Below are positions 20,086 to 40,943 of a stretch of 64,000 bases of DNA, piece by piece (within the stretch, counting starts at the first letter, position 1; each line of letters begins with the position of its first letter). Origin of the DNA: Negaprion brevirostris (lineage: Eukaryota); contig JARDVH010000149.1 in the NCBI GenBank assembly GCA_030324005.1, positions 25,229,587 through 25,293,586 on the forward strand, written 5' to 3'. The notes beneath the pieces are model-generated. The model ran no database searches. It had not been told where the DNA came from and was given only the letters and a program-made list of their open reading frames with translations. The translations under genes were made by a program, and so were the position numbers.

Positions 20086-21789
20086 AAAAAAAAAGCAAGA
20101 ATCAAAAATGGAGTTGCACATTTATATATAGGGACAACAATGAATGTAAATCAAAAATATGATGTTGAGTTTGTGTAAAACATTGGTTAGTCTCCAGTTG
20201 NNNNNNNNNNTTGTGTGCCGTATATCACCTCGTTGTTTTTCACCAATGAAAAGATACCATGAGGGTTCTGTTGAATTATACCAGGAGGGAGAGGTTATAG
20301 TTCTGAAGGAAGGCTCCAAAGTGAAGCATTCATCACTACAGCAATGCAGGCTGTGGGAGAACCAAGCAGATTTTTCCAAAATTATGAAAGGTCTTAGATG
20401 TTATGAATGAAAGACTATTTTCATTGACTGATAGACAAAGGAGCAGAAATGCAATGTTATCACAAATAAATGAAGAACTTGCATTTATCTTTGATCTTTC
20501 ATAACCTCTGGACATCACCAAGCACTTCAAGAAAAGAGGGCTTCCAAAGAATTTATCACACGGAGATCAAATAACCATGTGGCTATTAAGGCAGACACTA
20601 ATGCTATTTAAAAAGGATTGGATGAATGTTAGAGCATGGAAAAATATAAAAAGAATCTACAAAGGTGAGAGCAATAAAATTGAACAGATAGCTTTCAGTT
20701 AAGGAGTTTGCTGCACTGGCTAGGCTGTCTGCATTTCAGCTTCAATTTTGATAGCCACTGCAGAAAGTGCAGCTTCTCTATTTGTTATATTCTGCTATAA
20801 GTGGGCAACTTCCAGCAGTTTCAGTTGAGGGCTTGTTTCACTGCTTGCTACTTTAAGCTACTGCTGAATGCATTGCCTGCTGAAAGGACAGCAAATTGCA
20901 ATGACTGTGATGTTTTTCCTCCGAAAGTTACAAAGTCAATTCCTGGACCCAAACATTGGCATTATTAGCAGGTAAGTTGAGCATTGTGGACAATAATTGG
21001 GAAAATGTAAATTTGGGAAAGTTCTGAGCAGCTTTGATTGCTGTAAATAGTCTTTTGTTCTTTTAAATTCAACATATTAGGAATAATGTCACTTATTCCT
21101 AATGGTATCATGAGACTTCCTGGCACCCGGTCAAACCACTGTATTTTTTTTGCCTTTGCCACAAGCACGGATTGTTCACTGGTCCCTTCTGTGGATTGTA
21201 TCTGCTAGTTGGGTCTTTAAAAGGAGCAGCTTTGTGTTCTTGAATGAACTGTATGTCACATCCTTCAGAGGAATAGAAACAGTGAACAGTATACTTTTTG
21301 TAATGTTTACAGGATGTGCTATGGTCTGCAGTCACATTAAAGCAGTCAGCAGAAGTGAATCAAACACTTTGCAGCATATGCTGAGGCAGCTGAAATTCAA
21401 CAAGCAATTTGACGACAATTTGCTTTAAAACTTTGTTCCTTGGTAGCGACTGTCATTTGGGAGAATCTGACACAATGAATATTTATTCAGCGTGTGACAT
21501 TTGGAACAATTTTAAAACATTTCAAGCAAGAAGTAGCATTGCTAAATTTTATTTCAGCACTTGCACCTTCTTACAGTGCCCATCATGTGGTGGATTTAAA
21601 GGGAGCTTCAATCAGCATGATAANNNNNNNTACCTATGTTAGTATTCCAAAACGTTCGTGTTTCATGGTAATTTCCAATTAATTAAATAAGTTACAGCCA
21701 TTTTAAGCCACTTTACTCGAGATTCTCAACTCTAAAAGAGGATTTAGTTGGGTAGTGCAATTGCAAGGTGGCAAAATAAAGAACTGGCA

Positions 21790-22370
21790 CTTTTCCGAAC
21801 AACTTTCACAAGCTGAGGTCCGTTGCACAGCACTTTACAGCCAGCAAAATACTTCTAAAGTGTGGCCTCTTTTAAATTTTTTTATTTAAAAAAAAATTCA
21901 AATTAAATCCAATTTATGGCCCCCACAGGAGAGACAAACTAGATTTAAACCGACAGGATAAGGCATTGCACCCCATCTTGGGCTTGATCTAATGCTTCAT
22001 CTTAGCCAAAAGGTCGAGATGGCTTTGAAAAATTGCATGAAGCGACGCTTTAGTTGAACCTCGTAGGATACCCTGATCATGGACTCTCCCCTAGCTTCGG
22101 ATATCAAGCTGCCCGATCATTGACTCTCCTCTGCCAGGTAAGTATGTGGCCACTATTGTAATGTAGGAAACTTGGCAGCAAATTTGTCCACACCAAGTTC
22201 CTACAAACAATAGTGAGATAATGATCAAATCGTCATCTTGTGGTAATGTTGATTGAGGAATAAATATTGGCCAGGATGCCAGAGAGAATTCCCCTGATCC
22301 TCTTCAAAATTGTGCTTGTGGAATCTTCCTGAGAGGACAGATGGTTTAACATCTTGACTGAAAGACAAAG
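21790..22370 (-). mobile_element. DeuSINE-like (SacSINE1-type) element, split by the U1/U2 element
   Basis: cactttacagcc…tacttctaaagtgtggcc | actattgtaatgtaggaaac…gttgattgaggaataaatattggccagg…gtttaacatc…gaaagac follows the recalled Deu-domain SINE consensus once the insert is removed. Confidence 0.7.
21868..22145 (-). mobile_element. U1/U1/U2 snRNA-headed retroposon (SINEU-like chimeric SINE) with A-rich tail and 6-7 bp TSD
   Basis: Minus strand begins ATACTTACCTGGCAGAGGAGAGTCAATGATC (U1 nt 1-31; 22115-22145). A second U1 piece AGGGGAGAGTCCATGATCA lies at 22074-22092. U2-like TCTCGACCTTTTGGCTAAGATGAAG (21995-22019) matches U2 nt 7-31 at 23/25. Ends …TTTAAATAAAAAAATTTAAAAGA. Flanked by GTGGCC at 21862-21867 and 22146-22151, interrupting an older DeuSINE. 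Confidence 0.85.
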
Positions 22371-25300
22371 TTAAATTCACAACCAATCTATCTGCAGCAT
22401 TCCCAATTGTGCAGGATCTTTATACAATGGGTATTTTTTTTCTACAACTGCGGATAATCTGCTAAGCATATTTTGGTAAACATTGTTTAGCTTAGGCAAG
22501 AGACAAAGCTAATAGATTCACTAATTATTTCCAGTTCTCAAAAAAGATCAACATTTGAAATGTTGATTCCTCTAATCTTTCCACAGATGCTGAGCGACGT
22601 GCTCAGCATTTGCAACATTTTGTTTACTTTTCATGTCTCTTATCAATTGTTTGTCATCGTCTGATTACAAATGTGACAATATGTGCAATTGCAGCAAGCA
22701 CGGGGCAGAATGGTGACACAAATGGTCAGTTTATGGAACTCTACCTTGGATGAGGCAGAGATTCCCAATGGTATTTGCAACCTTTTGCTGATTGGACTTT
22801 TGGTTATATATTGTCCCCCGCCTGGAAAGGAAATAGTAGTTTACATTTCTCACACTGTCTGATGGCATTTCCTTCTTGTTGCAATTTTATTGTGATCATG
22901 CACTCCAAAATACATTTGACTTGATGCATTAATTAGACGTCCTGTACCTTGGGGACTGAACAAACATCAAATGCCCAGAGCTGTAGGTAACACATAAGCA
23001 GAACAAAAGCTTGCCCTACTACACTGATGAGGCCAATTAAGAGAATAGAAATTGAAGTAATCAACTGAAAGGAAGTATGTTTTAAAAAAAAAGGAGATCC
23101 ACAGTCTATATAGATGGTGGGGGGAAAGTGATGGAGTAGAGAGTTTTAAACGGTGGAGGTAAATTGAGTGAGTGGTCAACTGTTCAATTTGTACTTAAAG
23201 CTGCTATTCAGTGCATATGTAAGGACATGCACATTCATAGTTGAAATATCACAAATAAACTTCAAAAATTATGTTAAATACCCTTTGGAATTAACAGAAT
23301 GAGAAAATAACATTTTGCATTAATTTTTCAGGACCAGAGAGGTTCTTCAGGTGTAGATGTGATCTTACACTGTTTAAAAACCTCATTTAACAATTAAACA
23401 TTTTCAGGGGCTTTTTTTAAGTATAACTTCAATATTACAGTTTAACAGAGGAAACTCTCATCAGTTTGGTGTTCTCCATTGATATGCACTTGGAGTTTTC
23501 AGCACATCCTTTGGAGAAGCATAGAATCACTGCTGGTACTTTATAGATTGTGATTGTTCAATTCTGTATGTGCAGACTCCAGAAGTTGCTGTCAGTTTCA
23601 GGGGAGCACTAACATTGAATGCTGACAGTTTCAATATCATTACCATCGCAAAACATGGGGCTTCCTTCCCTCAAAACAATTGATGCAGCCTGGGGCTCAG
23701 CTACAGTGAGCTTTGCCTGTTCTCCAAGCAGCTTTTAAAAATCCACAGAACTTCAAAGTGTGAAATGTTCATGCCATGTTCCATCATCAAGCTGTCATCC
23801 ACAAACTTATTTTGCTCACTGCTTTCATTCGGACCGTCAGACTCTACACATCAATCAATCAGAGTGCATCCCCCTCTTTTGATTCTGCTGTGTATCCAGC
23901 AGTCAGGAACCGAGTTGTCTTTTTATCTTTTTTGTCAGAATGAATTATAGATGCAAGCCCCTGCAGCATGAATATGCGAGGATCATGCTCAGAGCACCAG
24001 TGCCTGGTACATTAGTCGATTATGAATGACATATTTTATGGAATATGTATAACAAGACAAATTCTACAATAACAACATTTATAATGTAATATTTAAATTA
24101 ACATCTGAAGAAACTATGAAGGAGGCAATTAAGAATCACATTGTCTTCATTAAACAGCTAAGCTCTGCCACACGGAATATCTGAATGTTTAACTCACAGC
24201 ATTAACCAAGAGACTTCAAATGTCCTGCTTACTCTACCCTCTCAGTGTGGGAACAGGATGTGTTCTGTAATTATGTATCTTCTCATAAAAATGATTCATG
24301 GTGCTACAGATTTCATTGTTTATCACTGCGATGGTTCTTACTTGAAACCTTAGGGAAACTGTGACTTCAAAATGGAAATATTACTGATAGTTCATTAAGG
24401 GACAAATGTTATTGATTCCCCGACTCAGACATTTGACCAGATACAGGGAGGAGTGGAATAGGTGCTTGTAGCAACTGTGGATCCCCTGGAAGGTCTAACA
24501 AATTTAATGGCAAGCCAGTCGCACTGAAAGGCTGGATGCTGGAATACAAGAAGGTAGCACCAGGCAAGGAGGGAGGAACTTCAAGGGCTGAGGAGGACTT
24601 TGGGTGGATGCAACATATTGAATGGAAGGGTTGATTGATCGTGGGGAGGAGGCTTGGTTCAATAATTGACAGGAAGTATACCAGTTCCTGCTGGCCCACA
24701 AGAGGTACTAGTAAGGCACTTAACTGCTGGATTTGAATCTTCTTGCCTTGGCTCAGCTGGACTCAGGAATCCTGGTCAACAAGAGTTAAAAATAAACTTG
24801 AGGTTGTATATGAGTTCTGCAACCTCATTACAATATCTTAAGTCATAGATCTGCCTCTGAAGAATTGATTACTTGTCTGTCCCCAGAGCAACTCAGTTAG
24901 AACTAGAGGCCACATTGGAGGCTCTCTGTGCTCAGCTTTCAGATTTTTCAAGTTTTACACCTCATCTATATTGAGAGTTAACATATTCACCCCCCTCGCT
25001 GAATTAGTTCCAACTGCAATTTCTGCTGATGAATTTACAGTATCTTTTTTCAAAAAATTAGAAAAGTTAGTTGATGATAAATCCTATCACAGGATCCCTT
25101 TGGATATATAACAACAAAGATTCATTTTACACATTAAACAGTGGACCATAATTCCTTGGCATAGCAAACGGTGGTAGACTGCTACTCTGTGCTGACTATC
25201 TGTGCTTAGATTCTTAAGTACCTGACTTGCCCATCCTTCCTGACTCAGGGTGGGTGAGATTCAGACAGCGCAGGGCACCCCTAACTCCAGGAATGAAGTG

Positions 25301-40329: not shown

Positions 40330-40690
40330 ATCTCTAGGCTGACATTCCAGTGCAGTGCTGAGCAAGTCCTGTGCCATTAGTGTCACCTTTCTGGTGAGAT
40401 GTTACAACTCTGCAGGGCACTCATGTGGGTGACAAAGATCTGGTGGACCTGTTTCTCAGGGGATTTGGAGAATTCTCCCTGGTGAGCTGGCCATTATTTT
40501 ATCCTTTGGTCAGTGTGTCTAAAGTGGATTATCTGGTCAATTACTACATTCCTGCTTGTGACAACTTGCAGCGTTCAACTAGTTTACATGTGTGTTACAC
40601 ATAAGATATCATGCTTCGAAACTTCTTAATTGGCTGTAGAGAACTCCTGAGGCCATGGAAGGTGCTGGGTAAAGGCAAGATCTTTCCTTC
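40330..40690 (+). mobile_element. DeuSINE-like element
   Basis: taggctgacattccagtgcagtgctgag…ttctccctggtgagctggcca…ggattatctggtca…aattggctgta, followed by an L2-type tail. Confidence 0.65.
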
Positions 40691-40943
40691 CCTCCATGCA
40701 GAGTCATCGGTTCCCTCCAGAACTTTGAAGCTTTTGCTGAGGCCTTCCAGTGTAACAGAGGCAATGCAATGCACCCAGCCAAGAAATGCCTTGTGTGGTA
40801 ACCAAAGACCAAACAGCACAGTTCATTCAGACCATCAAAACCTTCTATGTCGTTGGATTACATGAACGCTGGCAGAAGCCAATAGATGTGCCTAATAATC
40901 CTTCTTCAATCACTTTGGAAAGAAGCTCCCGAGTAACTGCCTC

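What the first reader, a model, noticed from the sequence alone, without database searches (positions are those of the whole stretch)
21983..22145. Layered heads ending at GAT(C/G) suggest repeated site-specific insertion into U1/U2 genes to borrow their promoters
Seen: both U1 pieces stop at ATGATC(A) (U1 nt 31-32). The U2 piece stops at AGATGAAG and is followed by a repeat, TAGATCAAG. U1 nt 14-31 is duplicated around a 22-nt spacer containing a hairpin (AGCTT-GATATCCG-AAGCT), resembling fossil target-site duplications. No tRNA A/B boxes are evident. Known: snRNA genes use external Pol II promoters, and some non-LTR elements (Keno, Utopia) target U2 genes. Inference: a source copy sits about 31 nt into a U1 gene (and earlier a U2 gene), is transcribed from the snRNA promoter, and so gains a new head on each cycle.
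Basis: inference. Interest (0 to 1): 0.7.

Follow-up and report, generated by a model that had tools for sequence, protein, structure and literature searches.

The report
Shark SINE built from spliceosomal RNAs
This is one copy of an abundant, old jumping-gene family in sharks, stitched together from pieces of the U1 and U2 splicing RNAs; such elements were described before from crocodilians, and this copy sits in another repeat, not in a U1 or U2 gene.

Summary
It spans 22145-21868 (minus strand): two U1 heads, a U2 head, a diverged U2 body (nt 23-102) and an A/T-rich tail. A 6-12 bp duplication flanks it, inside an older repeat.

The '22-nt spacer' is not an insertion. It is the 3' side of U1 stem-loop I, with two compensatory base pairs (8 of 10 pairs; 6 of 20,000 shuffles). 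So the outer head runs to about nt 57, not 31, and there are no fossil target-site duplications.

Contigs of four runs, each of a different organism, show a high-copy family with two-headed, one-headed and U2-first forms; this insertion is shared by three of them.

Best reading: a SINEU-type retroposon whose heads were added by template switching. Site-specific insertion into snRNA genes is neither shown nor excluded, as no genome was held. I found no shark SINEU in the papers searched. The structurally conserved head suggests a source locus transcribed like an snRNA gene, which is testable.

The parts
22146..22157 (-). Upstream copy of the target-site duplication (exact 6 bp at 22146-22151; 10 of 12 out to 22157)
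   Evidence: TSD table
22090..22145 (-). Outer head: U1 nt 1 to about 57, with the 5' splice-site-pairing arm and a complete stem-loop I
   Evidence: 41 of 57 vs L007; Rfam alignment
22093..22114 (-).
   Evidence: 8 of 10 pairs, 6 of 20,000 shuffles; majority letters at 22108 and 22102 repair the two broken pairs
22074..22092 (-). Inner head: U1 nt 14-32. Its first three letters can also be read as nt 55-57 of the outer head (microhomology)
   Evidence: 17 of 19; 18 of 21 to the outer head
22020..22073 (-). Middle segment shared by the family; possibly diverged U1 nt 33 to about 67, not significant on its own
   Evidence: 401 of 2000 shuffles; loose-end consensus at 22038 is colinear (68-150 contigs per run)
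21995..22019 (-). U2 head, nt 7-31, ending at or just before the branch-point recognition sequence
   Evidence: 23 of 25 vs L022, L063, L058
21983..21990 (-). Short repeat of U2 nt 24-31
   Evidence: 8 of 8
21905..21979 (-). Diverged U2 body, nt 23-102, branch-point region altered, ending in the Sm-site region; 21985-21900 folds into two hairpins
   Evidence: 54 of 80 vs L058; 0 of 1000 shuffles, best of 19 references; z -2.85, 2 of 200
21868..21904 (-). T-rich then A-rich tail; other copies stop aligning at 21903-21906
   Evidence: table 8 records 10, 11, 25
21862..21873 (-). Downstream copy of the target-site duplication (exact 6 bp at 21862-21867)
22146..22303 (-). Host repeat, upstream part (SacSINE1/DeuSINE-like by recall; label not tested)
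   Evidence: flanks align across the junction with window 40458-40700 (59%, 260 columns, E 1e-6); depth
21762..21861 (-). Host repeat, downstream part
   Evidence: loose ends at 22151 (64 and 114 contigs) continue into this part, i.e. empty sites

Best explanation
The stretch is the 5' 60% of a roughly 278-nt non-coding retroposon of the SINEU kind, in a shark-like genome. SHOWN: it is a discrete insertion with a target-site duplication and an A/T-rich tail inside an older repeat; it belongs to a high-copy family with fixed multi-head layouts; both recognisable ends of its body come from U1 and U2. INFERRED: it was copied by target-primed reverse transcription using an L1/Tx1-type LINE. New heads were added when reverse transcriptase jumped from a 5'-incomplete element RNA onto another U1- or U2-like RNA (most likely an element or variant-U1 RNA) at short microhomologies; some chimeras then became source copies. 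Having no internal promoter, source copies must be transcribed from outside. The compensated stem-loop I shows that the head's donor was a long-lived RNA under selection for U1 structure.
For: Insertion anatomy: exact 6-bp (10 of 12) flanking repeat; flanks contiguous with a paralogous repeat; empty host sites in 64 and 114 contigs (table 7). Family: 3334, 3745, 3533 and 5032 contig records laid on the 601-nt stretch, host repeat included; 13 of the 32 listed pieces (of 15,834) are other copies spanning both heads, 12 of them with 0-1 gaps, in all four runs (table 8). Head variation: a one-headed form 40 nt shorter (joint 22038-22115: 4, 1, 1, 0 contigs), one contig joining U1 nt 42 to a U2 head, two contigs joining at U1 nt 26, and 133-167 contigs per run with a U2-like 5' end followed by mixed flanks (tables 5, 5c, 7; read by eye). 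Heads share G22 and T23, found in 0 of 16 reference U1 genes; the majority letter at 22081 makes them agree at nt 25 too. Three-letter overlap at the head junction. Kojima 2015 documents the same pattern: 26 SINEU-2 copies with added U1 extensions, ragged breakpoints and short junction homologies, ascribed to template switching.
Against: No partner LINE was identified, and none was sought outside the window. In the human genome 0 of 33 U1 pseudogenes were template-switch chimeras with L1 (PMC4476161), so switching onto U1 is rare there. A 5'-truncated copy inserting into a variant U1 gene near nt 55-57 would leave the same microhomology. No shark U1 sequence was obtained, so the shared letters could belong to shark U1 itself. 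The middle segment's U1 origin is not significant. The alternative joints rest on 1-4 contigs each at an 80% threshold. The 3' U2 match depends on the reference (0, 6 and 117 of 2000 shuffles for three U2 genes).
Confidence: 0.6

Rival explanations
1. One reading: source copies arise by targeted insertion into U1 or U2 genes, are transcribed from the snRNA promoter, and so gain the gene's 5' part as a new head.
For: This copy starts exactly at U1 nt 1. Other pieces end at 22138-22146 (records 14, 18, 19, 21, 22, 23, 29). No internal tRNA promoter was found, and T-runs lie inside the element. U2-targeting LINEs exist. Two unchecked scan notes describe a LINE inside a U1 gene and a U2-headed Keno-like LINE in a cartilaginous fish (leads only).
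Against: The heads do not end at nt 31-32, and the claimed TSD is stem-loop I. Both heads carry the same non-canonical letters. The U2 breakpoint (nt 31-34) differs from the Keno/Utopia site (38/39), and the inner U2 piece starts at nt 23 and is far more diverged than the head. The only U1-targeting element listed in the paper read is a DNA transposon, Dada-U1, whose site lies elsewhere in U1. No U1 remainder (nt 33+) or U2 remainder (nt 39+) was found in the window at E 0.05.
Confidence: 0.15
2. The source is a host gene: a shark variant or hybrid U1-U2 snRNA gene with its own snRNA promoter, kept by selection. The dispersed copies are its retrocopies.
For: Two compensatory pair changes in stem I and an intact 5' arm; majority letters complete the stem. 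The 3' part folds better than shuffles. The same layout occurs in four organisms.
Against: Several head layouts coexist. The branch-point region of U2 is cut or altered, and U1 stems II-IV are not recognisable. Copies within one run differ from this one by 17-19%, with no listed near-identical long piece except the locus itself (table 8).
Confidence: 0.12
3. It is an internally deleted, non-autonomous derivative or 5' fragment of an snRNA-headed Tx1 LINE rather than a SINE in its own right.
For: Some crocodilian Tx1-Mar LINEs carry U1 or U2 heads. The depth peak at 21952-22014 could include another, commoner U2-headed family. An unchecked note reports a U2-headed LINE in a cartilaginous fish.
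Against: This copy is complete between duplicated target sites, and its 3' body is itself U2-derived. Loose ends at 21952 continue colinearly into the same short body in 166-211 contigs per run.
Confidence: 0.1
4. A one-off chimeric snRNA pseudogene, or a chance resemblance.
For: Only one copy lies in the 64-kb window. No Rfam hit reaches the gathering score.
Against: Colinear two-headed copies with other flanks occur in all four runs. U1 and U2 scores exceed all shuffles.
Confidence: 0.02

Closest known systems
SINEU-1, -2, -3 of crocodilians (Kojima 2015, PMC4494074; main text parts 1-4 of 5 read, figures and supplement not available)
   Same: U1- and U2-derived heads, repeated 5' addition, partial duplications, short length, A-rich end, internal T-runs, no tRNA head. 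U1 followed by U2, as in SINEU-2. U2 piece ending near nt 32, as in SINEU-3.
   Different: Host is a shark-like fish; the paper found no SINEU outside crocodilians. Two U1 and three U2 pieces in one 278-nt unit. Compensatory changes in U1 stem I are not discussed in the text read. This copy sits in a SINE-like repeat, not a Mariner. Sequence homology to crocodilian families could not be tested.
Keno (Tx1 clade) and Utopia, U2-gene-targeting LINEs (PMC4640811, passages read)
   Same: Association with the 5' part of U2.
   Different: They encode proteins and insert between U2 nt 38 and 39, followed by U2 nt 39 onwards. This element is non-coding, its U2 head ends at nt 31-34, and it lies outside a U2 gene.
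Tx1-Mar LINEs with U1/U2 heads (PMC4494074)
   Same: snRNA-derived 5' ends; the likely type of partner enzyme.
   Different: No reading frame here; no partner identified.
snRNA/LINE chimeric pseudogenes of mammals (PMC4476161, passages read)
   Same: Template switching joins an snRNA piece to the 5' end of a retrocopy.
   Different: Those are single events, mostly with U6; this is an amplified family with fixed layouts.
Dada-U1 DNA transposons (PMC3706591, passages read)
   Same: Site-specific association with U1 genes.
   Different: DNA transposon with a transposase, targeting a different site in U1; no A-rich tail described.

Membership tests
SINEU | 5' head derived from U1 or U2 snRNA | tested here: met
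SINEU | Amplified family with shared structure, not independent chimeras | tested here: met
   13 of 32 listed pieces are other copies spanning both heads, 12 with 0-1 gaps, in four runs
SINEU | Short (under 500 bp) and non-coding | tested here: met
   278 nt between duplicated sites; no ORF of 100 aa over it
SINEU | Recurrent 5' addition or duplication of snRNA pieces | tested here: met
   two U1 and three U2 pieces; one-headed and other forms
SINEU | 3' poly(A) tail | tested here: inconclusive
   tail 21868-21904 is T-rich then A-rich, not pure poly(A); tails of other copies were not shown
SINEU | Retroposition signature (target-site duplication) | tested here: met
   6 bp exact, 10 of 12; empty host sites
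SINEU | No tRNA, 5S or 7SL head; internal oligo-T | tested here: met
   ARAGORN 0 genes; no such Rfam hit at E 10 in 21500-22500; T-runs near 22029-22033 and 22008-22011
SINEU | Mobilised by a Tx1-type LINE with shared target preference | not testable with these tools
   no genome held
SINEU | Sequence homology with crocodilian SINEU-1/2/3 | not testable with these tools
   supplement unavailable; figures not held
Keno / Utopia | Encodes reverse transcriptase and endonuclease | tested here: not met
Keno / Utopia | Inserted between U2 nt 38 and 39, followed by U2 nt 39 onwards | tested here: not met
Functional U1 or U2 snRNA gene | Full-length Rfam match at gathering score | tested here: not met
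   26.3 vs 69.5 bits (U1), 17.3 vs 46 (U2)
Functional U1 or U2 snRNA gene | PSE-like motif about 60 nt upstream | tested here: not met
   crude ACC-core motif at -60 to -63 in 14 of 16 reference U1 loci (one of the two misses had no upstream DNA); no such motif in 80 nt upstream of 22145

The most novel reading that the evidence does not exclude
Sharks carry source loci in which a U1-U2 hybrid RNA is transcribed from a genuine snRNA (PSE/DSE) Pol II promoter. The RNA keeps U1's splice-site arm and stem-loop I under selection, and has been retrocopied thousands of times: a SINE that lives as a mimic snRNA gene, arisen independently of crocodilian SINEU. This would answer how snRNA-headed SINEs are transcribed.
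Probability: 0.2. Interest if true: 0.8.

Novelty: new member of a known kind. Interest (0 to 1): 0.5.

Why it matters
SINEU was described as confined to crocodilians, and how such elements are transcribed was left as an open question. A second, probably independent, high-copy vertebrate family suggests that snRNA-headed retroposons are a recurring solution, including loss of U2's branch-point region. The compensated U1 stem-loop gives a handle on the source locus: shark assemblies can be searched directly for copies behind a PSE. Shared insertions could also serve as phylogenetic markers. Antisense copies present a perfect 5' splice donor to host introns.

Tried and rejected
Whole-genome search: no genome is held. 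Other copies in the window: none. Element-specific 20-mer in viral contigs: 0. U1 pattern in viral contigs: 0. No RNA holder was listed; this is no evidence on expression.

Sm-site-like reading of 22049-22020 as U1 nt 115-129, suggested by the forced Rfam alignment: not significant (1125 of 2000). Extension of the inner head to U1 nt 67: not significant in this copy (401 of 2000). Whole-element fold: z -1.94, 7 of 200, weak. Outer head alone: z -1.39, weak; the register-specific pairing test is the stronger evidence.

A recalled resemblance of the middle segment to a DeuSINE/MetaSINE motif: the 12-mer gave 2 window matches against 2.41 expected, and the paper text holds no such letters; left open. 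By-eye resemblances to 5S rRNA and to a hammerhead core were dropped: majority letters favour U1, and the hammerhead core is incomplete (recalled consensus).

The bacterial promoter scan is irrelevant here. Run X9 showed no cover of the 3' flank, which proves nothing. Summed depth is not a copy number and was not used as one. Supplements of PMC4494074 and PMC5499810 could not be read; they bear on homology with SINEU and on the host repeat's name. Scan look-ups by sequence and place found nothing.

Full report
Setting. The window is eukaryotic, about 39% GC and repeat-rich. Its repeats resemble elasmobranch SINEs (recalled), and one of 22 runs holding the stretch is labelled a shark metagenome, so I call the host shark-like. 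No genome is held. Rfam finds nothing at gathering score in the window. In 21500-22500 it finds U1 (22145-21996, 26.3 bits, E 1.8e-4) and U2 (17.3 bits, E 0.64) on the minus strand.

References. I fetched real snRNA genes by pattern scans: 15 loci for U1, and 4 plus 55 for U2. Rfam confirmed full U1 and U2 genes among the 20 loci given. Sixteen U1 5' ends were usable. They are vertebrate-type by sequence; none is known to be shark.

Anatomy. U1 nt 1-31 matches 22145-22115 at 27 of 31, extending to nt 57 at 22090 (41 of 57). U1 nt 14-32 recurs at 22092-22074 (17 of 19). U2 nt 7-31 lies at 22019-21995 (23 of 25), nt 24-31 again at 21990-21983, and a diverged U2 nt 23-102 at 21979-21905 (54 of 80 with the best reference). 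The nt 33+ part of that last match was reached by 0, 6 and 117 of 2000 shuffles for three references, and by 0 of 1000 as best of 19 references. A T-rich then A-rich tail follows. The element is flanked by an exact 6-bp repeat (22146-22151 and 21862-21867), 10 of 12 when extended. With the element removed in a script, the flanks align across the junction with another repeat copy at 40458-40700 (59%, 260 columns, E 1e-6). So this is a roughly 278-nt insertion in an older repeat, which I recall as SacSINE1/DeuSINE-like; that name is untested. No PSE-like motif lies upstream, while 14 of 16 reference U1 loci show a crude one at -60 to -63. No U1 or U2 remainder lies elsewhere in the window.

The 'spacer'. 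Placed in U1 register, 22114-22093 forms stem I with nt 17-27: 8 of 10 Watson-Crick pairs, reached by 6 of 20,000 shuffles (71 when G-U pairs count). Pairs 23:42 and 25:40 are changed on both sides relative to the references; one of the 15 references tested has the same 25:40 pair. The two broken pairs, 20:44 and 27:38, are those repaired by the majority letters of other copies. At 22108 these make up 229 of 311, 670 of 925, 451 of 594 and 1177 of 1361 depth; at 22102, 139 of 172, 650 of 708, 397 of 397 and 695 of 758. Majority letters at 22114, 22098 and 22096 also return to the U1 letter. Both heads have G22 and T23, seen in 0 of 16 references, and the majority letter at 22081 aligns them at nt 25. 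They come from the same divergent U1 lineage, unless shark U1 itself has these letters, which I could not test.

The family (contigs of 4 of the 22 listed runs, four organisms, 80% threshold). Between 3334 and 5032 records per run were laid on 601 nt, host repeat included. Summed depth peaks at 21973-21993, thousands of times the single-copy flank; this is not a copy number. Of 32 listed pieces (15,834 in all), 13 are other copies spanning both heads, 12 with 0-1 gaps, several running on into unrelated flanks. Copies in run X1 differ from this one by 17-19%, so the family is old. A one-headed form 40 nt shorter appears in 4, 1, 1 and 0 contigs. Rarer joints link U1 nt 42 or nt 26 to the U2 part (1 and 2 contigs). 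In 133-167 contigs per run the sequence beyond 22013 reads as a U2 5' end and then mixed flanks; these may be U2-first copies or plain U2 pseudogenes. Loose ends at 21990 (90-104 contigs in three runs) show a U2 head running to about nt 34. Empty host sites appear in 64 and 114 contigs. Contigs at single-copy depth span the 5' junction in X13 (22011-22272, 25 differences) and X14 (22019-22178, 11 differences), so the insertion most likely predates the split of three organisms. Only 40 of 169 variant rows and parts of the other tables were shown, and human-like contigs are filtered out.

Mechanism. Duplication, tail and empty sites point to target-primed reverse transcription; an L1/Tx1-type partner is inferred from the tail and from crocodilian precedent. 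For head gain, the three-letter overlap at the head junction, the shared derived letters and the several layouts match what Kojima reported for SINEU-2 and ascribed to template switching (PMC4494074, parts 1-4 of 5 read). Against this, U1/L1 switch chimeras were 0 of 33 in human (PMC4476161, passages), and a truncated copy landing in a variant U1 gene would leave the same junction. The U2 breakpoint also misses the Keno/Utopia site at nt 38/39 (PMC4640811, passages), and the one U1-targeting element listed there is a DNA transposon with another site (PMC3706591, passages). What survives, and is interesting, is the promoter question: copies start at snRNA nt 1, lack a tRNA head, contain T-runs, and carry a head that evolved under structural constraint.

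What is known. SINEU is the closest family; most testable features are met, the tail is inconclusive, and partner and homology are untestable here. Six paper searches found no snRNA-headed SINE in sharks. A vertebrate TE review names SINEU for crocodilians only (PMC5381603, passages), and a paper on chondrichthyan SINEs never uses the word snRNA (PMC5499810, passages). PMC5786205 and PMC4824008 were read in passages and added nothing on sharks. Repbase, Dfam and most subscription journals could not be searched, so a prior entry may exist. Unchecked scan notes mention similar elements in arthropods and a U2-headed LINE in a cartilaginous fish; I used them as leads only.

Verdict. Observation partly confirmed, interpretation partly supported. 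This is a real, abundant, old SINEU-type family in sharks, a new member of a known kind. It has one feature worth pursuing, the compensated U1 stem-loop, which makes the transcription question testable. Interest 0.5.

Noticed in passing
window 40673-40798 (+): C-terminal exon of a Peptidase_M13 gene (Pfam E 5.6e-7; 1 of 72 frames scanned). No other exon was found upstream, so the element may lie antisense in a last intron longer than 40 kb.
   Followed up: partly
window 22135-22143 (+): The antisense of the U1 5' arm reads as a perfect 5' splice donor on the plus strand, the strand of the peptidase exon; such copies could be exonised.
   Followed up: no
L023, L048, L053, L064: Eukaryotic contigs in one bacterial MAG carry stacked U2-type 5' heads before a shared non-U2 body, next to a variant U2 gene: another snRNA-headed repeat in an unidentified eukaryote.
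   Followed up: partly
L015 9-55: A vertebrate-type U1 gene breaks off after nt 47 into unrelated DNA; this is not the Dada-U1 site described.
   Followed up: no
L002, L004, L024, L039: U2 5' ends that break off at about nt 33-41 into unrelated DNA, near the Keno/Utopia site.
   Followed up: no
L020-L074: Many of the 55 U2-pattern hits in prokaryotic genome contigs are full eukaryotic U2 genes or arrays, i.e. contamination of MAGs.
   Followed up: no
window 21871-21902: The element's tail is an imperfect A/T palindrome.
   Followed up: no
window 40380-40700 (+): A second, more decayed copy of the host repeat ends just before the peptidase exon's acceptor region.
   Followed up: partly
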